Virus record (IMG/VR): IMGVR_UViG_2718217789_000006
Source: a virus
Lineage: Duplodnaviria; Heunggongvirae; Uroviricota; Caudoviricetes
DNA length: 64,000 nucleotides
Direction: 5' to 3' (one strand)
This document shows positions 712 through 52,166 of the stretch, piece after piece. The notes below the pieces were generated by a model. That model had not been told where the DNA came from, ran no database searches, and was given only the letters and a program-made list of their open reading frames with translations. Positions within the stretch are counted from its first letter, which is position 1, and each line of letters starts with the position of its first letter. A program made the position numbers and the translations under genes.

Positions 712-1245
712 ATGGCGATAAAAGGGCTTGATCAGGCGATTGAAAATCTGAGCCGGGTTCGTAAAAACGCCATTCCGGCGGCTTCAGCAATGGCCATTAA
801 CCGCGTGGCCACAACGGCGATTAATCAGTCTTCATCACAGGTTGCCCGGGAGACAAAGGTACGCCGGAAACTGGTAAAGGAACGGTCCAGACTGAAACGG
901 GCCACGGTCAGAAATCCGAATGCCAGAATTATCGTTAAACGCGGTGATCTCCCTGTGATTAAGCTGGGGATCAGGATGCTGGGCCGTCGTCCGGACAGCA
1001 TACTTAAAGCTGGTCAGCATCGGTATCAGCGGGCATTTATCCAGCGATTAAAAAATGGTCGCTGGCATGTCATGCAGCGTGTGGCCGGGAAAAACCGTTA
1101 CCCCATTGATGTGGTGAAAATCCCGATGGCGGCCCCACTGAAACAGGCGTTTGATGAGAATATTGACCGTATCCGGCGTGAACGTCTGCCCGGAGAACTG
1201 GCATACGCGCTGAAACAACAACTTAGGATTGCGATAAAACGATGA
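712..1245 (+). CDS. Z: Minor tail protein Z
   Basis: 177 aa, MAIKGLDQAIENLSRV...NGRWHVMQRVAGKNRYPIDVVKIPMA, lambda gpZ-like; lambda gene order. Confidence 0.9.
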   Translation: MAIKGLDQAIENLSRVRKNAIPAASAMAINRVATTAINQSSSQVARETKVRRKLVKERSRLKRATVRNPNARIIVKRGDLPVIKLGIRMLGRRPDSILKAGQHRYQRAFIQRLKNGRWHVMQRVAGKNRYPIDVVKIPMAAPLKQAFDENIDRIRRERLPGELAYALKQQLRIAIKR

Positions 1246-1637
1246 AACATACTGATATCCGTGCGGCAGTGCTGGATGCACTGGAGCTGCATGAACACGG
1301 GGCGACGCTGTTTGATGGTCGCCCCGTTGTTTTTGACGAAGAGGATTTTCCGGCCGTCGCGGTTTATCTGACGGATGCAGAGTATACCGGTGAAGAGCTG
1401 GATGCAGATACCTGGCGGGCCACACTGCATATTGAGGTGTTTTTACCGGCACAGGTACCGGATTCGGAGCTTGATCAGTGGATGGAAAGCCGGATTTATC
1501 CGGCGGTGACTGCGATCCCGGCACTGGCAGACCTGATTACGACGATGGTTACGCAGGGCTATGAGTATCGTCGTGATGACGATATGGCGTTATGGAGTTC
1601 TGCGGATCTGACTTATTCCATTACATACGAGATGTGA
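1242..1637 (+). CDS. U: Minor tail protein U (tail terminator)
   Basis: 131 aa, ...[23 protein letters not shown]...[16 protein letters not shown]..., lambda gpU-like; 4-nt overlap with Z. Confidence 0.9.
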
Positions 1638-1644
1638 GGACGAT

Positions 1645-2397
1645 ATGGCAACACCAAATCCCCTTGAGCCGGTAAAAGGTGCCGGTACCACTCTGTGGGT
1701 TTACAACGGCAAGGGTGATGCTTATGCAAACCCGTTGTCAGACGATGACTGGCAGCGACTGGCTAAGGTGAAGGATCTGACGCCGGGCGAGATGACGGCA
1801 GAACCCTACGATGATAACTACCTGGATGATGAAGACGCGGACTGGACCGCGACCGGGCAGGGGCAGAAGTCTGCAGGAGATACCAGTTTTACGCTGGCCT
1901 GGAAACCGGGAGAAGAAGGTCAGAAAGGGCTTATAGGCTGGTTTGAAAGCGGGGATGTGCGGGCCTATAAAATCCGTTTCCCAAATGGCACGGTGGATGT
2001 GTTCCGTGGCTGGGTCAGCAGTATCGGTAAGGCCGTGACGGCGAAAGAAGTGATCACCCGCACGGTGAAAGTCACTAACGTGGGCAAACCTTCCGTGGCG
2101 GAAGAACGCAGCGAAATTACGCCGGCCACTGCAATTAAGGTGACACCGACATCCGGTACGGTGGCAAAAGGGAAAACAACCACCCTGACTGTTTCTTTTG
2201 AGCCGGAAAGTGCAACCGACAAGACGTTCAGAGCGGTTTCCGCCGATCCGTCGAAAGCCACCATTAGTGTGAAAGATATGACAATTACGGTAAACGGCGT
2301 GGCGACAGGTAAGGTGCAGATCCCTGTGGTGAGCGGAAATGGTCAGTTCGCCGCAGTGGCTGAAGTCACCGTTACTGAAGCGGGCGCTGCAGGGTAA
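1645..2397 (+). CDS. V: Major tail tube protein V
   Basis: 250 aa, ...[39 protein letters not shown]...[25 protein letters not shown]..., lambda gpV-like with C-terminal Ig-like region. Confidence 0.95.
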
Positions 2398-2410: not shown

Positions 2411-2833
2411 ATGTTTCTGAAAACAGAACAATTTGAATATAACGGTGTGTCCGTCACGCTTTCCGAATTGTCTGCGCTGCAGCGGTTTGATTATATAAAG
2501 TTTGTTTCAGACGCAGAACAACAGGAGACAACGAAGCATGATGTCGTGCACATTAACCAGCGATATCTGGAAACGGCATCCCTGCTTGTGGCGATGTCGC
2601 TATGGCATTCCCATTCCCTCAAAGGCACTCTGGCCTCTCCGGAGACAGAGATGCAGCAGATCCGCCGTGAAGTGATGCTGGGATGGCCTGCTGATGCACT
2701 GAATCAGGCAACGAACCGGGTGCTTTATCTTTCAGGTATGCTGGATAACCGGCACGATGCCGATCCTGAACAAACCGGTAAAGCAGAAGCGACTGAGTCG
2801 GTAACATCAAAAAAGCATTCGAAGGCGAGCTGA
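2411..2833 (+). CDS. G: Tail assembly chaperone G
   Basis: 140 aa, MFLKTEQFEYNGVSVTLSELSALQR..., lambda gpG-like; ends just after a slippery heptamer. Confidence 0.9.
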   Translation: MFLKTEQFEYNGVSVTLSELSALQRFDYIKFVSDAEQQETTKHDVVHINQRYLETASLLVAMSLWHSHSLKGTLASPETEMQQIRREVMLGWPADALNQATNRVLYLSGMLDNRHDADPEQTGKAEATESVTSKKHSKAS

Positions 2834-3273
2834 ACTTTGTCCTGAAACTGGCGCGAGAGATGGGGAGACCCGACTGGCGCGCCATGCTTGCCGGGATGAC
2901 ATCCACCGAATATGCCGACTGGCGACGTTTTTACTGCACGCATTATTTTCAGGATACCCAACTGGACGCTCATTTTTCCGGGCTGATGTACGCCGTACTC
3001 AGCCTGTTTTTTGGCGATCCGGATATGCATCCGGCGGATTTCAGTCTGCTTGCTCCAGCGTGTGAGGAAGAGCAGACGGAGATGCCGGACGAGGAAGAAA
3101 TGCTGATGCAGAAAGCGACAGGAGTTGCCGGAGGCGTCCGGTTCGGAGGGGACGGAGGGCGCGATATTTCACCTTCTGCGGATGTGGTGGATGTCAGCGA
3201 GGATGATGTTGCATTAATGATGGCTTCAGCGGGGATTTCCGGAGGTGTGAGATATGTCCCAGCCAGCGGGTGA
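2411..3273 (+). CDS. T: Tail assembly protein G-T, product of programmed -1 ribosomal frameshift
   Basis: T frame (ending 3273) is the -1 frame relative to G and is open upstream of its first ATG through the heptamer A_AAA_AAG at 2809..2815; -1 reading gives ...KKAFEGELNFVLKLAREMGRPDWRAMLAGMTSTEYADWRRFY... Confidence 0.75.
2809..2815 (+). promoter_or_regulatory. Slippery heptamer A_AAA_AAG for the G to G-T -1 frameshift
   Basis: In-frame X_XXY_YYZ motif in the G reading frame at the G/T overlap; lambda uses G_GGA_AAG at the same position. Confidence 0.7.
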
Positions 3274-5866
3274 TCTGGTTATTGATTTGAGTCTGGATGC
3301 GGCCCGGTTTGATGAACAGATGGCCCGGGTACGCCGTCATTTTTCCAGTCTGGAGGCGGATGCCAGAAAAACCGCCAGTACTGTTGAACAGGGGCTGAGC
3401 CGACAGGCGCTGGCGGCACAAAAAGCCGGGATATCAGTCGGACAGTATAAGGCTGCCATGCGCACACTGCCCGCACAGTTCACGGATATTGTCACTCAGC
3501 TTGCCGGTGGTCAGAATCCCTTCCTTATCATGCTGCAGCAGGGGGGGCAGATCAGCGATTCATTCGGTGGACCGCTCAGCCTGCTTACCCTGCTGAAGGA
3601 GGAACTTCTCGGGATCAGGGATGCCTCTGAATCATCAGAGGAGTCGCTGTCAGATACGGCAAATGCACTGGCTGAAAATGCCCGGAATGCCGGTGAGCTG
3701 GGACGATTTATGTCGGTGGCCCGTGTGGCGGCAGGTGGCGGGGTTGCCGTACTGGCCGCGCTTGCTGCCGCCGCCTGGCAGGCAGAGCAGGCTGACCGGG
3801 CCTTATTGCGTTCACTGATCCTGACCGGAGGGGCGGCTGCCACCACAACGGCAGAATTGTGGAAAATGGCCGGGGTGATCAGCGATGAAGCCGGTGGTGG
3901 TATCAGACAGGCGGCAGAAAATCTGGCCCGTCTGGCAGAAAGCGGGAAATATACCGCCGGGCAGCTACGGATCATGGGGGAAACCTCTCAGAGATGGCTG
4001 CAGACGGTGGGGGACGATGCCGGGAAGGTGGAAAAAGCCTTTGAAGGGATTGCAGCAGATCTGGTGAAGGCGCTGGCCTCCCTGAATCAGCAGTATAACT
4101 TCCTGAGCGTTTCCCAGTTACGCCATATTGATGAGCTTGAGCGCACGAAAGGTAAACAGGTTGCGGTGACGGAGGCGATGTCCCTGTTTGCGGATGTCAT
4201 GAATGCACGTCTGGAGCAACTTGATAAAGCGGCCACGCCGGTGGAAAAAATCTGGGACGATGTTAAAACCTGGACTTCTGACGCATGGGCATGGATAGGT
4301 GATCATACACTGGGGGCACTCAGTCTGATCACTGACGTGGTGGCCGGAACCGTTGAACAAGTGAAGCTGCTGCTTGTGCAGGGGGATCTGGCGCTGGCTG
4401 AATTTATTCAGTCAGCCTGGGAAACGACAAAGAATGTGCCCGGCGTTGGTGCGTTGTTTGGTGAACTGGCAGAAGAGAACCGCGTATTTATTGAGAAAAC
4501 AAAACGCGATGAACTGGCGCTGAGAAAATCCATTGCGGAACGGGATGCGCGTATACGCCAGGGGGAAATGGGGTACATCAACCGCTCGCGTGCAACAGGC
4601 GTCAGCAAAGGTCCGGGGCAGCAGGAAGCCGTCAGCCGTCTGGCTGAAGAGCTGACAGGTAAAAAGCATACATCACCGAAAACGCGCTCTGCCGGGGAGA
4701 GGGAAGAGGAGCAGGCAAGAGAGGCTCTGCTTGCCCTTGAAGCTGAGCTCAGGACGCTGGAAAAACACAGCGGTGCGAATGAGAAAATCAGCCGGCAGCG
4801 CCGTGATTTATGGAAGGCGGAAAGTCAGTATGCGGTCCTGAAAGAGGCTGCCACGAAACGACAGTTATCTGAGCAGGAAAAATCCCTGCTGGCGCATAAA
4901 GACGAGACGCTGGAGTACAAACGCCAGCTGGCTGAGCTGGGCGACAAGGTTGAATACCAGAAACGCCTGAATGAGCTGGCACAGCAGGCGGTGCGGTTTG
5001 AAGAGCAGCAGAGCGCGAAGCAGGCCGCCATCAGCGCAAAAGCCCGCGGTCTCACTGACCGTCAGGCGCAGCGGGAGTCTGAAGCGCAGCGTCTTCGGGA
5101 CGTGTACGGTGATAATCCGGCTGCGCTGGCGAAGGCCACATCGGCACTGAAGAACACCAGGTCTGCGGAGGAGCAGCTTCGTGGAAGCTGGATGGCCGGG
5201 CTGAAGTCCGGCTGGGGCGAGTGGGCGGAAAGTGCGACGGACAGTTTTTCGCAGGTTAAAAGTGCTGCCACGCAGACCTTTGACGGTATTGCACAGAATA
5301 TGGCGGCGATGCTGACCGGTGCAGAGGCAGACTGGCGGGGATTCACCCGTTCGGTGCTGTCCATGATGACAGAAATCCTGCTTAAACAGGCCATGGTGGG
5401 CATTGTCGGGCGTATCGGCAGCGCCATTGGCGGTGCTTTCGGTGGTGGTGCATCTGCTTCCTCGGGGACGGCCATTCAGGCTGCGGCGGCGAACTTCCAT
5501 TTCGCGACCGGAGGATTTACGGGGACGGGCGGCAAATATGAGCCTGCGGGGATAGTTCACCGCGGGGAGTTTGTTTTCACGAAAGAGGCAACCAGCCGGA
5601 TAGGTGTGGGGAATCTTTACCGTCTGATGCGCGGCTATGCGGAAGGTGGTTATGTGGGTGGTGCCGGAAGTCCGGCGCAGATGCGGCGGGCGGAAGGTAT
5701 TAATTTTAATCAGAACAATCACGTGGTGATTCAGAACGACGGCACCAACGGACAGGCGGGGCCGCAGCTGATGAAGGCGGTGTATGACATGGCCCGCAAG
5801 GGGGCGCAGGATGAGCTCCGGCTGCAGTTGCGTGATGGCGGTATGTTATCGGGGAGCGGGCGATGA
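3254..5866 (+). CDS. H: Tail tape measure protein H
   Basis: 870 aa; N- and C-terminal regions (…LSRQALAAQKAGISVGQYKAAMRTLPAQFTD…; …AMVGIVGRIGSAIGG…HFATGGFTGTGGKYEPAGIVHRGEFVFTKEATSRIG…) match lambda gpH as recalled; GGAGG RBS; overlaps end of T. Confidence 0.9.
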   Translation: MSQPAGDLVIDLSLDAARFDEQMARVRRHFSSLEADARKTASTVEQGLSRQALAAQKAGISVGQYKAAMRTLPAQFTDIVTQLAGGQNPFLIMLQQGGQISDSFGGPLSLLTLLKEELLGIRDASESSEESLSDTANALAENARNAGELGRFMSVARVAAGGGVAVLAALAAAAWQAEQADRALLRSLILTGGAAATTTAELWKMAGVISDEAGGGIRQAAENLARLAESGKYTAGQLRIMGETSQRWLQTVGDDAGKVEKAFEGIAADLVKALASLNQQYNFLSVSQLRHIDELERTKGKQVAVTEAMSLFADVMNARLEQLDKAATPVEKIWDDVKTWTSDAWAWIGDHTLGALSLITDVVAGTVEQVKLLLVQGDLALAEFIQSAWETTKNVPGVGALFGELAEENRVFIEKTKRDELALRKSIAERDARIRQGEMGYINRSRATGVSKGPGQQEAVSRLAEELTGKKHTSPKTRSAGEREEEQAREALLALEAELRTLEKHSGANEKISRQRRDLWKAESQYAVLKEAATKRQLSEQEKSLLAHKDETLEYKRQLAELGDKVEYQKRLNELAQQAVRFEEQQSAKQAAISAKARGLTDRQAQRESEAQRLRDVYGDNPAALAKATSALKNTRSAEEQLRGSWMAGLKSGWGEWAESATDSFSQVKSAATQTFDGIAQNMAAMLTGAEADWRGFTRSVLSMMTEILLKQAMVGIVGRIGSAIGGAFGGGASASSGTAIQAAAANFHFATGGFTGTGGKYEPAGIVHRGEFVFTKEATSRIGVGNLYRLMRGYAEGGYVGGAGSPAQMRRAEGINFNQNNHVVIQNDGTNGQAGPQLMKAVYDMARKGAQDELRLQLRDGGMLSGSGR

Positions 5867-27414: not shown

Positions 27415-28101
27415 ATGACCCCAATAAAAATATTTATGACTATTGCTGATTTCAAACGGCCTAAATTGGAGCTCCCAAACGGGGCAAACAAACTACTACT
27501 GCACTCTTGCTGTGCTCCATGTTCCGGTGAAGTGATGGAGGCGCTTCAGGCCTCGGGAATCGACTACACCATCTTTTTCTACAACCCGAACATTCATCCT
27601 CAGAAAGAGTATTTAATTCGTAAGGATGAAAATATTCGCTTTGCTGAACAACACGGCGTGCCGTTTATCGATGCTGATTACGACACCGACAACTGGTTTG
27701 AACGTGCCAAAGGAATGGAATGGGAGCCTGAGAGGGGGATCCGTTGTACCATGTGTTTTGACATGCGTTTTGAGCGGACAGCGTTGTACGCTGCTGAAAA
27801 TGGTTTCAGTGTGATCAGCAGTTCACTGGGCATTTCACGCTGGAAAAATATGCAGCAGGTTAACGAGTGTGGGCGGCGAGCTGTTGCGCATTATCCGGGT
27901 ATGGTGTACTGGGATTATAACTGGCGCAAGCAGGGCGGCTCGTCCCGTATGATTGAAATCAGCAAGCGCGAAAAATTCTATCAGCAGGAATATTGTGGCT
28001 GTGTGTATTCTCTGCGCGATACCAATCTACACCGCAAATCTCAGGGACGCCCTCTTATCAAAATTGGCCAACTCCACTACGGAAAAGAAGAGAAGGAGTG
28101 A
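27415..28101 (+). CDS. QueH-like protein (DUF208, epoxyqueuosine reductase family)
   Basis: 228 aa; [11 protein letters not shown]...FFYNPNIHP...QEYCGCVYS motifs characteristic of QueH/DUF208 as recalled. Confidence 0.55.
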
Positions 28102-46635: not shown

Positions 46636-46909
46636 TCTGTTTACGCGAATGTGTTGCCGGATGGACGTGGCGACCGTTCGGGTGATGGGCAAACAGGCGG
46701 AGATTAACGGCGTCGTGTACGACGTGATGCCGGAGGAAGAGTCCGCGGAGATGGGGGCGCTTTCGGGCAGCCAGTTGTCACTGGTGGTGTTTTCAGCCCG
46801 GTACCGTCCGGCCCGTCATGATGTTGTTGTGTTTGCGGGGCGCACACTGACGGTGACCCGTTATGACACGTACAACGGTAAACCCCGGATTTTTGTCGAA
46901 CAGGAATGA
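46628..46909 (+). CDS. Putative head-tail adaptor/connector protein
   Basis: 93 aa between head protein and tail protein Z; by position. Confidence 0.45.
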   Translation: MSDLFTRMCCRMDVATVRVMGKQAEINGVVYDVMPEEESAEMGALSGSQLSLVVFSARYRPARHDVVVFAGRTLTVTRYDTYNGKPRIFVEQE

Positions 46910-46911
46910 GT

Positions 46912-47535
46912 ATGGCAATAAAAGGTCTGGCGCAGGCCATGAAAAATCTGGATGCAATTGATCGCCGTGCCGTTCCCCGGGCCTCTGCCACGACACTGAA
47001 CCGCGTGGCGGGGGCCATTATTGCGAAAACGGCCTCTTCAGTTGCCAGGGAGCTGGCCGTTCCCCGTCGTCTTATCCGTGCCCGCATCCGGTTAAGTCCG
47101 GCACGACCGGATAAGGTTTACGCAAAGGTTTACATCAATACCGGCAACCTGCCCGCCATCAAACTGGGGGAGGCCCGCGTTCGACTTTCCCGCAGAAAAC
47201 GGAGAAAGAAAGGACAGCGTGCGGCCCTGAAAGGGGGCGGCAGTGTGCTGATTGTGGGGAAAAGACGGATCCCGGACGCCTTTATCACCCGGCTGGCTAA
47301 CGGACGCTGGCATGTGATGCAGCGTATGCCGTGGGCATCATCATCCACCGGCGCGGACAGCAAAGGGAGGCCGAAACGCCACCGTCTGCCGATCGAAGTG
47401 GTGAAGATTACGACTGCCGGACCGCTGGCAGAAACCTTTGAACGTGAACGGGACCGGATGTACCGGGAAAAATTACCGGCGCAGATGATGAAAGCCATGA
47501 CGCATCAGTTACGCCTGGTGCTGAAAAGAAAATGA
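46912..47535 (+). CDS. Z: Minor tail protein Z (divergent from the prophage A copy)
   Basis: MAIKGLAQAMKNLD...NGRWHVMQRMPWASS...; AGGAA RBS. Confidence 0.85.
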   Translation: MAIKGLAQAMKNLDAIDRRAVPRASATTLNRVAGAIIAKTASSVARELAVPRRLIRARIRLSPARPDKVYAKVYINTGNLPAIKLGEARVRLSRRKRRKKGQRAALKGGGSVLIVGKRRIPDAFITRLANGRWHVMQRMPWASSSTGADSKGRPKRHRLPIEVVKITTAGPLAETFERERDRMYREKLPAQMMKAMTHQLRLVLKRK

Positions 47536-47547
47536 CTGGGAGGGTGT

Positions 47548-47946
47548 ATGAAACACCGTGAAATACGGGCGGCAGTTCTGTCTGCCCTGAAAGAAAATAT
47601 TTCTGAGAGGGTGAGCTGGTTTGACGGTCGCCCGGTTTTTATTGATGAACAGGAACTGCCTGCTGTTGCTGTTTACCTGACAGATGCGTCTGCTGCTGAC
47701 GAGTTCGTTGATGAGGGAACCTGGGAGGCGACACTGCATATTGAGGTTTTTCTCAGGGCAAAAGAACCGGACTCGGCACTGGATATGTGGATGGAAGAAA
47801 AAATTCTTCCTGCGCTGGAGGCAGTTCCCGGGCTCAGTGCATTACTGCTGAAGATGAATCTTCAGGGGTATGACTACCGCCGGGATGATGAGTTTATGAT
47901 GTGGGGATCGGCAGATCTCCTGTGGAAAATTACCTACGAGATGTGA
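47548..47946 (+). CDS. U: Minor tail protein U
   Basis: 132 aa, ...[17 protein letters not shown]...HIEVFL...; differs from the prophage A copy except at the 3' end. Confidence 0.85.
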
Positions 47947-48719: not shown

Positions 48720-49142
48720 ATGTTTCTGAAAACAGAACAATTTGAATATAACGGTGTGTCCGTCACGCTTTCCGAATTGTCTGCGCTGCAGCGGTTTGAT
48801 TATATAAAGTTTGTTTCAGACGCAGAACAACAGGAGACAACGAAGCATGATGTCGTGCACATTAACCAGCGATATCTGGAAACGGCATCCCTGCTTGTGG
48901 CGATGTCGCTATGGCATTCCCATTCCCTCAAAGGCACTCTGGCCTCTCCGGAGACAGAGATGCAGCAGATCCGCCGTGAAGTGATGCTGGGATGGCCTGC
49001 TGATGCACTGAATCAGGCAACGAACCGGGTGCTTTATCTTTCAGGTATGCTGGATAACCGGCACGATGCCGATCCTGAACCAACCGGGAAAACAGAAGCG
49101 ACTGAGCCGGTAACATCAAAAAAGCATTCGAAGGCGAGCTGA
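48720..49142 (+). CDS. G: Tail assembly chaperone G
   Basis: 140 aa, near-identical to 2411..2833. Confidence 0.9.
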   Translation: MFLKTEQFEYNGVSVTLSELSALQRFDYIKFVSDAEQQETTKHDVVHINQRYLETASLLVAMSLWHSHSLKGTLASPETEMQQIRREVMLGWPADALNQATNRVLYLSGMLDNRHDADPEPTGKTEATEPVTSKKHSKAS

Positions 49143-49477
49143 ACTTTGTCCTGAAACTGGCGCGTGAGATGGGGAGAGCCGACTGGCGCGCCATGCTTGC
49201 CGGGATGACATCCACCGAATATGCCGACTGGCGACGTTTTTACTGCACGCATTATTTTCAGGATACCCAGCTGGATATGCATTTTTCCGGGCTGATGTAC
49301 GCCGTACTCAGCCTGTTTTTTTGCGATCCGGATATGCATCCGGCGGATTTCAGCCTGTTCGCTCCGGAGGCAGAGGAAGGACAGGCGGAGACGCCGGACG
49401 AAAATGATGTACTGATGCAGAAGGCGGCGGGCCTCGCCGGTGGAGTCCGTTTCGGGGAGGAGGGAAGGAGGTTGTGA
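48720..49477 (+). CDS. T: Tail assembly protein G-T via -1 frameshift at A_AAA_AAG (49118..49124)
   Basis: Same slippery heptamer and frame relationship as copy A; the T C-terminus diverges and is shorter than in copy A. Confidence 0.7.
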
Positions 49478-49520
49478 CAGTTATTGATGGTATCAGAGGA
49501 CATTTCAGGAGGTGACCACG

Positions 49521-52166
49521 ATGGCAGGTAATTTTGCCGATCTGACAGCCGTGCTGACACTGGATTCTGCCCGTTTTTCTGAAGAGGCAGCGCGGGTAAA
49601 AAAAGAGCTGGGTGAAACCAGTGCGCTTGCTGATTTGATGTCCGGGAAAGTCAGTCAGTCTTTCAGAAAACAGGCTGATGCTGCTGAGCAGAGTCTGAGC
49701 CGACAGGCGCTGGCGGCACAAAAAGCCGGGATATCAGTCGGACAGTATAAGGCTGCCATGCGCACACTGCCCGCACAGTTCACGGATATTGTCACTCAGC
49801 TTGCCGGTGGTCAGAATCCCTTCCTTATCATGCTGCAGCAGGGGGGGCAGATCAGCGATTCATTCGGTGGACCGCTCAGCCTGCTTACCCTGCTGAAGGA
49901 GGAACTTCTCGGGATCAGGGATGCCTCTGAATCATCAGAGGAGTCGCTGTCAGATACGGCAAATGCACTGGCTGAAAATGCCCGGAATGCCGGTGAGCTG
50001 GGACGATTTATGTCGGTGGCCCGTGTGGCGGCAGGTGGCGGGGTTGCCGTACTGGCCGCGCTTGCTGCCGCCGCCTGGCAGGCAGAGCAGGCTGACCGGG
50101 CCTTATTGCGTTCACTGATCCTGACCGGAGGGGCGGCTGCCACCACAACGGCAGAATTGTGGAAAATGGCCGGGGTGATCAGCGATGAAGCCGGTGGTGG
50201 TATCAGACAGGCGGCAGAAAATCTGGCCCGTCTGGCAGAAAGCGGGAAATATACCGCCGGGCAGCTACGGATCATGGGGGAAACCTCTCAGAGATGGCTG
50301 CAGACGGTGGGGGACGATGCCGGGAAGGTGGAAAAAGCCTTTGAAGGGATTGCAGCAGATCCGGTGAAGGCGCTGGCCTCCCTGAATCAGCAGTATAACT
50401 TCCTGAGCGTTTCCCAGTTACGCCATATTGATGAGCTTGAGCGCACGAAAGGTAAACAGGCTGCGGTGACGGAGGCGATGTCCCTGTTTGCGGATGTCAT
50501 GAATGCACGTCTGGAGCAACTTGATAAAGCGGCCACGCCGGTGGAAAAAATCTGGGACGATGTTAAAACCTGGACTTCTGACGCATGGGCATGGATAGGT
50601 GATCATACACTGGGGGCACTCAGTCTGATCACTGACGTGGTGGCCGGAACCGTTGAACAGGTGAAGCTGCTGCTTGTGCAGGGGGATCTGGCGCTGGCTG
50701 AATTTATTCAGTCAGCCTGGGAAACGACAAAGAATGTGCCCGGCGTTGGTGCGTTGTTTGGTGAACTGGCAGAAGAGAACCGCGTATTTATTGAGAAAAC
50801 AAAACGCGATGAACTGGCGCTGAGAAAATCCATTGCGGAACGGGATGCGCGTATACGCCAGGGGGAAATGGGGTACATCAACCGCTCGCGTGCAACAGGC
50901 GTCAGCAAAGGTCCTGGGCAGCAGGAAGCCGTCAGCCGTCTGGCTGAAGAGCTGACAGGTAAAAAGTATACATCACCGAAAACGCGCTCTGCCGGGGAGA
51001 GGGAAGAGGAGCAGGCAAGAGAGGCTCTGCTTGCCCTTGAAGCTGAGCTCAGGACGCTGGAAAAACACAGCGGTGCGAATGAGAAAATTAGCCGGCAGCG
51101 CCGTGATTTATGGAAGGCGGAAAGTCAGTATGCGGTCCTGAAAGAGGCTGCCACGAAACGGCAGTTATCCGGGCAGGAAAAATCCCTGCTGGCCCATGAG
51201 AAAGAGACGCTGGAGTACAAACGCCAGCTGGCTGAGCTGGGCGACAAGGTTGAATACCAGAAACGCCTGAATGAGCTGGCACAGCAGGCGGTGCGGTTTG
51301 AAGAGCAGCAGAGCGCGAAGCAGGCCGCCATCAGCGCAAAAGCCCGCGGTCTCACTGACCGTCAGGCGCAGCGGGAGTCTGAAGCGCAGCGTCTTCGGGA
51401 CGTGTACGGTGATAATCCGCAGGCGCTGGCCCGGGTCACCGGGGCACTGAAACAGACATGGGCGGATGAAGACATGCTGCGCGGTGACTGGCTGGCCGGG
51501 CTGAAGTCCGGCTGGGGGGAGTGGGCGGAAAGTGCGACGGACAGTTTTTCGCAGGTTAAAAGTGCTGCCACGCAGACCTTTGACGGTATTGCACAGAATA
51601 TGGCGGCGATGCTGACCGGTGCAGAGGCAGACTGGCGGGGATTCACCCGTTCGGTGCTGTCCATGATGACAGAAATCCTGCTTAAACAGGCCATGGTGGG
51701 CATTGTCGGGCGTATCGGCAGCGCCATTGGCGGTGCTTTCGGTGGTGGTGCATCTGCTTCCTCGGGGACGGCCATTGAGGCTGCGGCGGCGAACTTCCAT
51801 TTCGCGACCGGAGGATTTACGGGGACGGGCGGCAAATATGAGCCTGCGGGGATAGTTCACCGCGGGGAGTTTGTTTTCACGAAAGAGGCAACCAGCCGGA
51901 TAGGTGTGGGGAATCTTTACCGTCTGATGCGCGGCTATGCGGAAGGTGGTTATGTGGGTGGTGCCGGAAGTCCGGCGCAGATGCGGCGGGCGGAAGGTAT
52001 TAATTTTAATCAGAACAATCACGTGGTGATTCAGAACGACGGTATCAACGGACAGGCGGGGCCGCAGCTGATGAAGGCGGTGTATGACATGGCCCGCAAG
52101 GGGGCGCAGGATGAGCTCCGGCTGCAGTTGCGTGATGGCGGTATGTTATCAGGGAGCGGGCGATGA
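49521..52166 (+). CDS. H: Tail tape measure protein H
   Basis: ATG 49521 with AGGAGGTG RBS; N-terminal ~60 aa differ from copy A, remainder near-identical. Confidence 0.9.
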   Translation: MAGNFADLTAVLTLDSARFSEEAARVKKELGETSALADLMSGKVSQSFRKQADAAEQSLSRQALAAQKAGISVGQYKAAMRTLPAQFTDIVTQLAGGQNPFLIMLQQGGQISDSFGGPLSLLTLLKEELLGIRDASESSEESLSDTANALAENARNAGELGRFMSVARVAAGGGVAVLAALAAAAWQAEQADRALLRSLILTGGAAATTTAELWKMAGVISDEAGGGIRQAAENLARLAESGKYTAGQLRIMGETSQRWLQTVGDDAGKVEKAFEGIAADPVKALASLNQQYNFLSVSQLRHIDELERTKGKQAAVTEAMSLFADVMNARLEQLDKAATPVEKIWDDVKTWTSDAWAWIGDHTLGALSLITDVVAGTVEQVKLLLVQGDLALAEFIQSAWETTKNVPGVGALFGELAEENRVFIEKTKRDELALRKSIAERDARIRQGEMGYINRSRATGVSKGPGQQEAVSRLAEELTGKKYTSPKTRSAGEREEEQAREALLALEAELRTLEKHSGANEKISRQRRDLWKAESQYAVLKEAATKRQLSGQEKSLLAHEKETLEYKRQLAELGDKVEYQKRLNELAQQAVRFEEQQSAKQAAISAKARGLTDRQAQRESEAQRLRDVYGDNPQALARVTGALKQTWADEDMLRGDWLAGLKSGWGEWAESATDSFSQVKSAATQTFDGIAQNMAAMLTGAEADWRGFTRSVLSMMTEILLKQAMVGIVGRIGSAIGGAFGGGASASSGTAIEAAAANFHFATGGFTGTGGKYEPAGIVHRGEFVFTKEATSRIGVGNLYRLMRGYAEGGYVGGAGSPAQMRRAEGINFNQNNHVVIQNDGINGQAGPQLMKAVYDMARKGAQDELRLQLRDGGMLSGSGR

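What the first reader, a model, noticed from the sequence alone, without database searches (positions are those of the whole stretch)
3050..3400. Divergent recombination patch spanning the T 3' end and H 5' end inside otherwise identical modules
Copies A and B are identical through V, G and most of T, then diverge over about 350 bp (T C-terminus 137 versus 102 aa; H N-terminus MSQPAGDLVIDLSLDAARFDEQ... versus MAGNFADLTAVLTLDSARFSEE...) and become identical again within H. The equivalent region in copy B is ~49360..49700. This is a localised mosaic exchange at the chaperone/tape-measure interface, the part of GT that binds H.
Basis: seen in the sequence. Interest (0 to 1): 0.4.

Follow-up and report, generated by a model that had tools for sequence, protein, structure and literature searches.

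The report
Swappable tape-measure N-terminus in lambdoid prophages
Two neighbouring lambda-like prophages of E. coli O157:H7 share almost identical tail genes except for a 350-base cassette at the start of the tape-measure gene, and across many phages this cassette goes with the genes that finish the top of the tail, not with the genes next to it.

Summary
Window copies A (3045-3395) and B (49354-49695) are about 51-63% identical with four indels. The flanks are 99-100% identical: V-G-T on the left and H onwards on the right. The window is E. coli O157:H7 and holds two tandem lambdoid prophages.

It is a discrete mosaic cassette, but it is not "the part of GT that binds H". Published work assigns H binding to the G domain and V binding to the T domain.

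Copy B's short T results from a 1-nt frameshift plus a 41-nt deletion. It keeps the whole TIGR01715 domain and also occurs in the infectious phage Phi1720a-02.

The class-defining part is the first 47 (lambda-class) or 58 (B-class) residues of tape-measure protein H.

In 94 unique haplotypes this N-terminus co-varies with Z and U, the tail completion and terminator genes (r = 0.84-0.86). It does not co-vary with V, G, the T core or the H body (r = 0.12-0.17), whereas G co-varies with the H body (0.77). A second, independent pair of phages shows the same patch with the same boundaries.

Best reading: a bi-allelic H N-terminal cassette kept matched to Z/U. Rare discordant prophages exist. It is ordinary lambdoid mosaicism with an interesting linkage pattern.

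The parts
712..1245 (+). Copy A gene Z (tail completion protein), lambda-type class
   Evidence: Pfam Minor_tail_Z, E = 2e-58. It is 40% identical to Z of copy B. Its class co-varies with the H N-terminal class.
1242..1637 (+). Copy A gene U (tail terminator), lambda-type class
   Evidence: Pfam Phage_tail_U, E = 2e-60. About 58% aa identity to U of copy B.
1645..2397 (+). Copy A gene V (major tail tube protein). Near-identity with copy B starts here.
   Evidence: Pfam Phage_TTP_12 plus Big_2. There is 1 SNP against copy B.
2411..2833 (+). Copy A gene G (tail assembly chaperone)
   Evidence: Pfam Phage_TAC_2 and TIGR01674. 99% identical to copy B.
2809..2815 (+). Slippery heptamer A_AAA_AAG for the -1 G-to-T frameshift, copy A
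   Evidence: The heptamer is in the correct phase of G. The -1 frame continues as AFEGELNFVLKLAREMGR... and gives a 287-aa GT protein that matches TIGR01674 plus TIGR01715. Use of this site is inferred, not demonstrated.
2815..3273 (+). T reading frame of copy A (-1 frame; annotated T ORF 2860-3273), full length with two LM..AGGVR[FY] repeats (3100-3147 and 3208-3258)
   Evidence: (TIGR01715 matches in two stretches).
3045..3395 (+). Divergent patch, copy A allele (lambda class): T C-terminal tail, T/H overlap and H codons 1-47
   Evidence: It is 72-100% identical to lambda, PhiR5_1, PhiR12_1 and Stx1_9793.
3241..3247 (+). GGAGGTG Shine-Dalgarno-like sequence for H, copy A. It also encodes the GGV of the second T repeat.
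   Evidence: Read directly from the sequence. It ends 6 nt upstream of ATG 3254.
3254..3394 (+). H N-terminal variable module, lambda class (aa 1-47). It lies upstream of the Pfam TMP_2 domain.
   Evidence: TMP_2 starts matching at H residue 54. Boundary at LSRQALAAQ.
3254..5866 (+). Copy A gene H (tape measure protein, 870 aa)
   Evidence: Pfam TMP_2 and Tape_meas_lam_C; TIGR01541.
46906..47535 (+). Copy B gene Z (tail completion protein), B class
   Evidence: Pfam Minor_tail_Z, E = 2e-54.
47548..47946 (+). Copy B gene U (tail terminator), B class
   Evidence: Pfam Phage_tail_U, E = 3e-52.
48720..49142 (+). Copy B gene G, with slippery heptamer A_AAA_AAG at 49118-49124
49124..49477 (+). T reading frame of copy B, truncated after the first GGVRFG repeat (...GEEGRRL, stop TGA 49475-49477)
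   Evidence: Relative to the full-length B2 allele (L042) there is a 1-nt deletion that shifts the frame into a TGA stop, followed by a 41-nt deletion. PGAP marks it as a pseudogene, but TIGR01715 positions 1-110 of 111 are present.
49354..49695 (+). Divergent patch, copy B allele (B1 class)
   Evidence: It is 98-100% identical to VT1-Sakai and Phi1720a-02.
49478..49520 (+). Untranslated remnant of the second T repeat (would read QLLMVSEDISGGDHDG). It still holds the GGAGGTG Shine-Dalgarno-like sequence for H at 49508-49514.
49521..49694 (+). H N-terminal variable module, B class (aa 1-58). About 34-40% identical to the lambda class, with an 11-residue insertion.
49521..52166 (+). Copy B gene H (tape measure protein, 881 aa from ATG)
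   Evidence: PGAP uses the same start.

Best explanation
The patch is one of two allelic versions of a small recombination cassette. The cassette holds the dispensable C-terminal tail of assembly protein T, the T/H translational junction and, above all, the first 47 (lambda class) or 58 (B class) residues of tape-measure protein H.

Shown: the cassette is bounded by two blocks that are conserved in all lambda-like tails. These are the T core ending ...DPDMHPADFSL and the H block starting LSRQALAAQKAG.

Inferred: homologous recombination between lambdoid (pro)phages crosses over in these blocks.

Shown: in this E. coli O157:H7 window the two tandem prophages have the same V, G, T core and H body through J, but different head, Z, U and cassette.

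Shown: across about 190 loci the cassette class follows the class of Z (tail completion protein) and U (tail terminator), which lie 1.4-2.5 kb upstream. The intervening V, G and T core and the adjacent H body reassort freely.

Inferred: the N-terminus of H sits at the head-proximal end of the tail. It has to fit its own Z, and perhaps U, as the tape-measure N-termini do with the tail completion protein in the phage 80alpha neck structure. Recombinants that mismatch the cassette and Z/U would therefore be selected against in phages that must form infectious particles. They can persist for a while in resident prophages.

Shown: copy B's shortened T is a secondary frameshift truncation. It is carried by the infectious phage Phi1720a-02, so it is evidently tolerated.
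For: Patch anatomy
- Discrete patch and boundaries.
- The patch lies between the conserved T domain (TIGR01715 positions 1-110 present in both copies) and Pfam TMP_2, which starts at H residue 54.

Allele distribution
- Allele A is the common lambda type. Allele B is rare: it covers the full query in 12 of 184 matching phage records, including VT1-Sakai, CP-1639 and Phi1720a-02.

Four samplings of IMG/VR
- By B-class H N-terminus: 45 loci with B-type U, 1 with A-type.
- By lambda-class H N-terminus: 69 with A-type U, 1 with B-type.
- By Z of copy B: 47 B-class H N-termini, 4 lambda-class.
- By Z of copy A: 61 lambda-class, 0 B-class.

Co-variation in 94 unique haplotypes
- Pearson r of pairwise identity with the H N-terminus: Z 0.84, U 0.86, V 0.15, G 0.15, T core 0.17, next 70 residues of H 0.15, H middle 0.12.
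- G with H middle is 0.77.
- The class table is 55 / 35 concordant against 2 / 2 discordant, Fisher p = 5e-21.
- Both cassette classes occur on each of three G/H-body backgrounds.

Independent replicate
- L123 and L173 come from different sources and have a different G and H body from the window. They are 99-100% identical through V-G-T core and again in H, with a divergent patch of about 330 nt ending at the same LSRQALAAQ codon and with mismatched Z/U classes.

Structural precedent
- In 80alpha, residues 1-37 of three tape-measure chains form a beta-sheet and helix bundle with the tail completion protein, the gpZ equivalent (PMC11661146).

T truncation tolerated
- Phi1720a-02 carries the same short T and infects E. 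coli K-12 (PMC6328086).
Against: - The association is not absolute. Seventeen complete genomes (O145:H28, O111:H8, O121:H19, UTAK-8) carry B-type U with the lambda-class patch over a full 2322-nt probe.
- At least 12 O157:H7 genomes (EC4115, TW14359, SS52 and others) carry the reverse combination.
- Four of 94 unique haplotypes are discordant.
- There are only two cassette classes and two Z/U classes, so the number of truly independent recombination events behind the correlation is small, perhaps 3-6. The loci are phylogenetically related and the Fisher and Mantel p-values overstate significance.
- No physical contact between lambda gpH and gpZ or gpU has been seen. Neither gpZ nor the H N-terminus is resolved in the lambda virion structures.
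- Z and U are themselves tightly linked to the head genes, so the real partner could lie further upstream.
Confidence: 0.5

Rival explanations
1. Neutral mosaic leftover. The two tail modules descend from diverged ancestors. Two separate gene-conversion or recombination tracts (V to T core, and H to J) homogenised the flanks among co-circulating EHEC prophages, and the patch is simply the stretch that was not converted. Its association with Z/U reflects shared ancestry and short physical distance, not function.
For: - Lambdoid prophages of EHEC share many near-identical segments, with up to 8 lambda-like places per genome.
- Further micro-patches exist inside H at 4861-4903 and 5120-5218.
- Discordant Z/U-patch combinations exist in complete genomes.
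- Only two classes exist, so there are few independent events.
Against: - The same patch, with the same boundaries and the same Z/U association, recurs on a different G/H-body background in phages from different sources.
- Correlation with the H N-terminus is high for Z/U but near zero for the physically closer V, G, T core and H body. That is the opposite of decay with distance.
- A single crossover anywhere in the 1.4 kb of shared V-G-T would break the association, yet 92-100% of loci are concordant in the four samplings.
Confidence: 0.3
2. One reading: the patch is the co-evolving contact surface between the T part of gpGT and the N-terminus of H, so the two ends must be exchanged together.
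For: - The two segments are adjacent and overlap translationally.
- The T C-tail and the H N-terminus correlate at r = 0.74.
Against: - Literature: the G domain binds H and the T domain binds V.
- G, not the T tail, co-varies with the H body.
- Lambda combines a B2-like T end with a lambda-class H N-terminus, so the two parts separate at the T stop / H start.
- The B1 allele has lost the second T repeat altogether and still occurs in an infectious phage.
Confidence: 0.07
3. Diversifying selection from host or prophage defences that sense the tape-measure protein. The N-terminal cassette is swapped to escape recognition.
For: Defence systems that act through the tape-measure protein are known: Tab (PMC10884400) and SNIPE (bioRxiv 10.1101/2025.11.03.685801).
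Against: - The known sensitive regions are residues 100-150 or the C-terminus, not residues 1-58.
- Escape does not predict linkage to Z/U.
- There are only two old, internally conserved classes, with 81-100% identity within the B class, and no hypervariability.
Confidence: 0.05
4. Expression tuning. The cassette matters because it carries the T stop / H start junction. Allele A has a 20-nt overlap and allele B a 43-nt gap, so the alleles set different H : GT translation ratios.
For: The junction geometry differs, while the GGAGGTG Shine-Dalgarno-like sequence is kept in both copies, even in the untranslated remnant of copy B.
Against: - The full-length B2 allele has an 11-nt overlap like the lambda class (lambda itself has 8 nt), yet it keeps the B-class H N-terminus. 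Junction geometry is therefore not what defines the classes.
- This view does not explain the linkage to Z/U.
Confidence: 0.05
5. Assembly artefact: a collapsed or chimeric repeat in the source assembly.
For: Draft contigs often break at the start of V, where the shared repeat begins.
Against: Both copies are 100% identical over 1.5 kb to many complete genomes and lie at the expected 46.3-kb spacing in strain 9000. Both alleles also occur in independent phage records.
Confidence: 0.01

Closest known systems
Mosaic gene modules of lambdoid phages (Hendrix/Casjens model; from my own knowledge)
   Same: Sharp transitions between near-identical and highly diverged sequence. The same alleles are found in other phages in other combinations. 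The boundaries fall at the edges of conserved protein blocks.
   Different: The exchanged unit is very small (about 350 bp), lies inside two genes and has only two classes. Its class tracks non-adjacent genes (Z, U) and not its neighbours.
Pool of lambda-like prophages in E. coli O157:H7 (Sp/CP-933 prophages). Copy B's allele is that of VT1-Sakai / Sp15.
   Same: The window is 100% identical to O157:H7 strain 9000 over the two 1.5-kb stretches tested. Copy B's patch is 99.8-100% identical to VT1-Sakai. These genomes hold several prophages with near-identical tail genes.
   Different: The prophage in the window is not Sp15 itself: it sits in tandem directly after another lambdoid prophage. I found no published description of the T/H patch in the searches I ran.
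Tape-measure N-terminus bound to the tail completion protein in the Staphylococcus phage 80alpha neck (PMC11661146)
   Same: The variable module is the extreme N-terminus of the tape measure, of similar length (47-58 aa against 37 modelled). The co-varying partner includes the gpZ-family tail completion protein.
   Different: There is no sequence similarity to 80alpha and no structure for lambda gpZ or the H N-terminus. The contact is inferred here from co-variation only. Lambda has six H chains by one account, against three in 80alpha.
Lambda gpG / gpGT frameshift chaperones
   Same: G and T match TIGR01674 and TIGR01715. A -1 slippery heptamer lies near the end of G, and T ends overlapping the start of H.
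   Different: The heptamer here is A_AAA_AAG and not lambda's G_GGA_AAG (the lambda site is from my own knowledge). Copy B's T lacks the second C-terminal repeat.

Membership tests
Lambda-type tail assembly chaperones G and GT | The G protein matches the gpG family model. | tested here: met
   TIGR01674 E = 1e-33 and Pfam Phage_TAC_2 E = 4e-34, in both copies.
Lambda-type tail assembly chaperones G and GT | A -1 slippery heptamer near the 3' end of G opens into a T frame that matches the gpT family. | tested here: met
   A_AAA_AAG at 2809-2815 and 49118-49124, in phase. The fused products match TIGR01715 at E = 4e-59 (A) and 6e-51 (B), positions 1-110 of 111. Frameshifting itself was not tested.
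Lambda-family tape measure protein | TMP_2 N-terminal domain and lambda-type C-terminal domain. | tested here: met
   PF06791, PF09718 and TIGR01541 (E = 8e-106 and 1e-107) in both copies.
gpZ tail completion protein / gpU tail terminator | Full-length match to Minor_tail_Z and Phage_tail_U. | tested here: met
   all four proteins match at E <= 3e-52. Z of copy A and Z of copy B are 40% identical.
Lambdoid mosaic module | Discrete boundaries with near-identity on both sides. | tested here: met
Lambdoid mosaic module | Each allele is found elsewhere joined to different flanking alleles. | tested here: met
   Phi1720a-02 has the B patch with a lambda-type H body and a different V. Both classes occur on three G/H backgrounds.
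The literature places H binding in the G domain and V binding in T.
   Lambda pairs a B2-like T end with a lambda-class H N-terminus. B1 has lost the second T repeat, while B2 keeps it with the same H class.
Tape-measure N-terminus / tail completion protein interface (80alpha type) | The tape-measure N-terminal segment co-varies with the tail completion protein independently of intervening genes. | tested here: met
   r = 0.84 (Z) and 0.86 (U), against 0.12-0.17 for V, G, T core and H body. Concordance is 92-100% in four samplings. Rare discordant prophages exist.
Tape-measure N-terminus / tail completion protein interface (80alpha type) | Physical contact between the two proteins in the virion. 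| not testable with these tools
   gpZ and the H N-terminus are unresolved in the lambda structures. No multimer prediction was available.

The most novel reading that the evidence does not exclude
Lambda-like tail gene clusters consist of two physically interleaved co-adapted sets: {Z, U, first ~50 residues of H} and {G, T core, H body}. V is free to pair with either. The small H N-terminal cassette is the specificity element that fits a tape measure to its own tail completion and terminator proteins. This amounts to a sequence-based prediction that lambda gpZ, whose place in the virion is still unresolved, contacts the N-terminus of gpH.
Probability: 0.45. Interest if true: 0.6.

Novelty: new member of a known kind. 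Interest (0 to 1): 0.42.

Why it matters
Taken alone, the patch is one more example of lambdoid mosaicism in EHEC prophages.

The population pattern behind it is more useful. It marks a 47-58-residue segment of the tape-measure protein whose ancestry follows the tail completion and terminator genes and not its neighbours. That gives a concrete, testable prediction for where gpZ acts in lambda-like tails. The prediction can be tested by swapping the cassette with and without Z/U.

It also shows which tail parts can be freely exchanged (V, G with the H body, and the distal tail) and which must travel together. This matters for engineering hybrid phages and for judging whether recombinant Stx prophages are likely to be viable.

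It also cautions against reading PGAP's 'pseudogene' flag on the short T as loss of function.

Tried and rejected
- My first global nucleotide aligner settings gave meaningless 0-3% values for strongly diverged segments. I read those only as 'not alignable' and used protein identities afterwards.
- My first regular expression for the H motif missed most loci and was corrected.
It returned mostly lambda control-DNA contamination and only about five real relatives, so it could not be used.
- I first read the '>=99%: 85 records' band of the chimera probe as 85 discordant genomes. That was wrong, because concordant A-type copies also reach 99% at partial coverage. Listing the best rows showed exactly 17 records with full coverage.
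- I considered predicting a Z + H N-terminus complex. The structure tool takes single chains from the window only and returns no contact information, so I did not run it.
- I considered that the two IMG/VR exceptions, L028 and L083, were assembly chimeras. Complete genomes show that discordant haplotypes are real.
- I did not use the search for homologous proteins or the search of protein representatives, because wider homologues without genomic context would not test the linkage.
Full report
**What the window is**

Stretches of 1.5 kb around both copies are 100% identical to many complete E. coli O157:H7 genomes. In strain 9000 (NZ_CP018252.2) the two copies lie 46.3 kb apart, as they do in the window.

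The annotation shows two lambdoid prophages in tandem.
- Prophage A has lambda-type head genes and Z, U, V, G, T, H ... J. These are followed by three DUF1076 genes and dinI.
- The integrase of prophage B comes directly after. Prophage B has a fused protease/capsid head gene, its own Z and U, and then the same tail genes.

**Check of the observation**

Self-BLAST and MAFFT alignments show the following.
- The copies differ upstream of V, at about 65% identity in U.
- They become essentially identical at the first base of V (1642 / 47951).
- They diverge strongly over 3045-3395 (A) = 49354-49695 (B).
- They are 100% identical again from 3396 / 49696, and no further difference appears until 4062.

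The patch is 351 nt in A and 342 nt in B. It has 196 identical columns out of 384, and 75 gap columns in four indels. The contrast with the flanks is overwhelming (p = 7e-127 and 5e-140).

One refinement concerns the left flank. It has 1 SNP in 1642-2771 but 12 SNPs in 2772-3044 (p = 2.6e-8). The differing tract therefore probably starts at the 3' end of G. It only looks identical through the T core because that core is conserved in all lambda-like phages, at 84-100% nucleotide identity.

**Anatomy**

G and T:
- G matches the gpG family models in both copies.
- A slippery heptamer A_AAA_AAG lies in the correct phase at 2809-2815 and 49118-49124.
- The -1 frame gives GT fusion proteins of 287 aa (A) and 252 aa (B). 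Both match TIGR01715 over positions 1-110 of 111.

Extra C-terminal residues in copy A:
- Copy A has 35 more residues at the T C-terminus. These are a second copy of a motif..LM..A.G..GGVR[FY], that is also duplicated in lambda T.
- The codons for GGV in that second repeat (GGAGGTG) also serve as the Shine-Dalgarno-like sequence for H in both copies.
- In copy A the T frame overlaps the start of H by 20 nt.

Truncation in copy B:
- In copy B, T stops 43 nt before H.
- I aligned copy B with a sub-class I call B2 (for example L042). B2 has the same kind of H N-terminus but a full-length T. The alignment shows that copy B carries a 1-nt deletion that shifts the frame into a TGA stop, followed by a 41-nt deletion.
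- PGAP therefore calls this T a pseudogene.
- The same short T is present in Phi1720a-02 (KF030445). That phage is described as functional and able to infect E. coli K-12 (PMC6328086).
- The truncation is therefore a tolerated secondary change and is not what defines the allele.

Position of the patch in H: Pfam TMP_2 begins to match only at residue 54. The patch thus occupies the gap between the conserved T domain and the conserved tape-measure domain.

**Distribution of the two alleles**

- Allele A is the common lambda type. Lambda, PhiR5_1, PhiR12_1 and Stx1a phages are 72-100% identical to it across the patch.
- Allele B covers the full query in only 12 of 184 matching phage records, including VT1-Sakai, CP-1639, several Stx2 phages and Phi1720a-02.
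- Phi1720a-02 joins the B patch and the same G to a lambda-type H body and a different V. The right edge of the patch is therefore a recombination joint in more than one context.

Papers that summarise the work on lambda state that gpG and the G part of gpGT bind the tape measure, and that the T domain binds the major tail protein V (PMC4493119 and PMC5009743).

The T C-tail and the H N-terminus also separate from each other. Lambda has a B2-like T end with a lambda-class H N-terminus. 'Mosaic exchange' is therefore correct, but 'the part of GT that binds H' is not supported.

**What the cassette goes with**

I fetched IMG/VR loci in four ways and classified the neighbouring genes.

| Loci selected by | Result |
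|---|---|
| B-class H N-terminus (all 52 loci) | 45 B-type U, 1 A-type U |
| Lambda-class H N-terminus (best 80 of 490) | 69 A-type U, 1 B-type U |
| Z of copy B (all 72 loci) | 47 B-class, 4 lambda-class H N-termini |
| Z of copy A (best 80 of at least 590) | 61 lambda-class, 0 B-class H N-termini |

V, G and H-body types are shared between the two classes.

For 94 unique haplotypes I correlated pairwise protein identity in the H N-terminus with that in each other segment.

| Segment | r with the H N-terminus |
|---|---|
| Z | 0.84 |
| U | 0.86 |
| V | 0.15 |
| G | 0.15 |
| T core | 0.17 |
| T tail | 0.74 |
| Next 70 residues of H | 0.15 |
| H middle | 0.12 |

A second linkage group appears in the same matrix. 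G correlates with the next 70 residues of H and with the H middle at 0.77 each, and with the T core at 0.69. V correlates with nothing.

The gene order Z U | V | G T-core | T-tail H-N | H-body therefore holds two interleaved linkage groups. The G / H-body group agrees with the known G-H binding.

For the Z/U / H N-terminus group there is a structural precedent. In the 80alpha neck, residues 1-37 of the three tape-measure chains form a beta-sheet and a helix bundle with the tail completion protein, the gpZ equivalent (PMC11661146). In lambda neither gpZ nor the H N-terminus has been resolved.

**Independent replicate**

L123 has a lambda-class cassette and lambda-type Z/U. L173 has a B-class cassette and B-type Z/U. 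They come from different sources, and their G and H body differ from those in the window.

They are 99-100% identical from the start of V through the T core. They then diverge for about 330 nt up to exactly the LSRQALAAQ codon, and are 99-100% identical again afterwards. The pattern in the window is therefore recurrent and is not a one-off event between two co-resident prophages.

**Limits**

- The association is strong but not absolute.
- A synthetic probe joining B-type U-V-G-T core to the A patch matches 17 complete genomes over its full length. These are O145:H28, O111:H8, O121:H19 and UTAK-8.
- The reverse probe matches at least 12 O157:H7 genomes, including EC4115 and TW14359.
- These discordant copies are nearly identical to the O157-type sequences and look like recent recombinants. 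I do not know whether they are viable phages.
- With two classes on each side, the number of independent events behind the correlation is small. The p-values (Mantel 5e-4; Fisher 5e-21) ignore relatedness.
- Z and U are also linked to the head genes, so the true partner could lie further upstream.

**Verdict**

The patch is real. It is a small, bi-allelic recombination cassette centred on the tape-measure N-terminus.

I hold the recombination part with high confidence. I put the co-adaptation with Z/U at about one in two, with neutral leftover mosaicism as the main rival. As a kind of thing it is ordinary lambdoid mosaicism. Its value lies in the testable prediction about the gpZ / gpH N-terminus contact.

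Noticed in passing
window 4861-4903 and 5120-5218 (copy B 51161-51203 and 51420-51518): Two further mosaic micro-patches lie inside H between the otherwise identical copies: 8 SNPs, and 30 SNPs in 99 nt without indels. In the second one copy A resembles VT1-Sakai and the PhiR phages, while copy B resembles Stx1_9793.
   Followed up: partly
loci L213-L235 (genome-contig scan): Lambda-type H sequence turns up in low-coverage contigs of unrelated taxa (Pseudomonas, Shewanella, Neobacillus, Oceanobacillus, Kitasatospora, Bradyrhizobium, Legionella and others). Several of these contigs are about 48.4 kb long. This looks like lambda control-DNA contamination of public assemblies.
   Followed up: no
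window 49169-49477: PGAP marks T of copy B as an incomplete pseudogene. The same allele keeps the whole TIGR01715 domain and is present in the infectious phage Phi1720a-02.
   Followed up: yes
window 14279-18156: The junction of the two tandem prophages holds three DUF1076 genes (14279-16279; NleG-like effectors by my own knowledge), dinI (16441-16683) and then directly the integrase of prophage B (16861-18156).
   Followed up: no
window 27436-30296: The early region of prophage B carries an NgoMIV-family restriction endonuclease (29418-30296) with a C5 cytosine methyltransferase (28286-29404), and next to them a QueH epoxyqueuosine reductase gene (27436-28101).
   Followed up: no
window 2809-2815 and 49118-49124: The G-to-T frameshift site here is A_AAA_AAG, the dnaX-type heptamer, and not lambda's G_GGA_AAG (lambda site from my own knowledge). 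It is identical in both copies.
   Followed up: partly
loci L146, L149, L150, L156, L157, L160, L161, L163 and others: Many draft-assembly contigs that carry B-type Z/U end close to the start of V. The shared V-G-T repeat is evidently a common break point for short-read assemblies of EHEC genomes.
   Followed up: no
locus L211 (O145:H28 RM12581): The discordant prophage (B-type Z/U with the lambda-class patch) has its portal, capsid-fusion, adaptor-like and J genes all annotated as frameshifted. This reflects either a decaying prophage or homopolymer errors in an older assembly.
   Followed up: no
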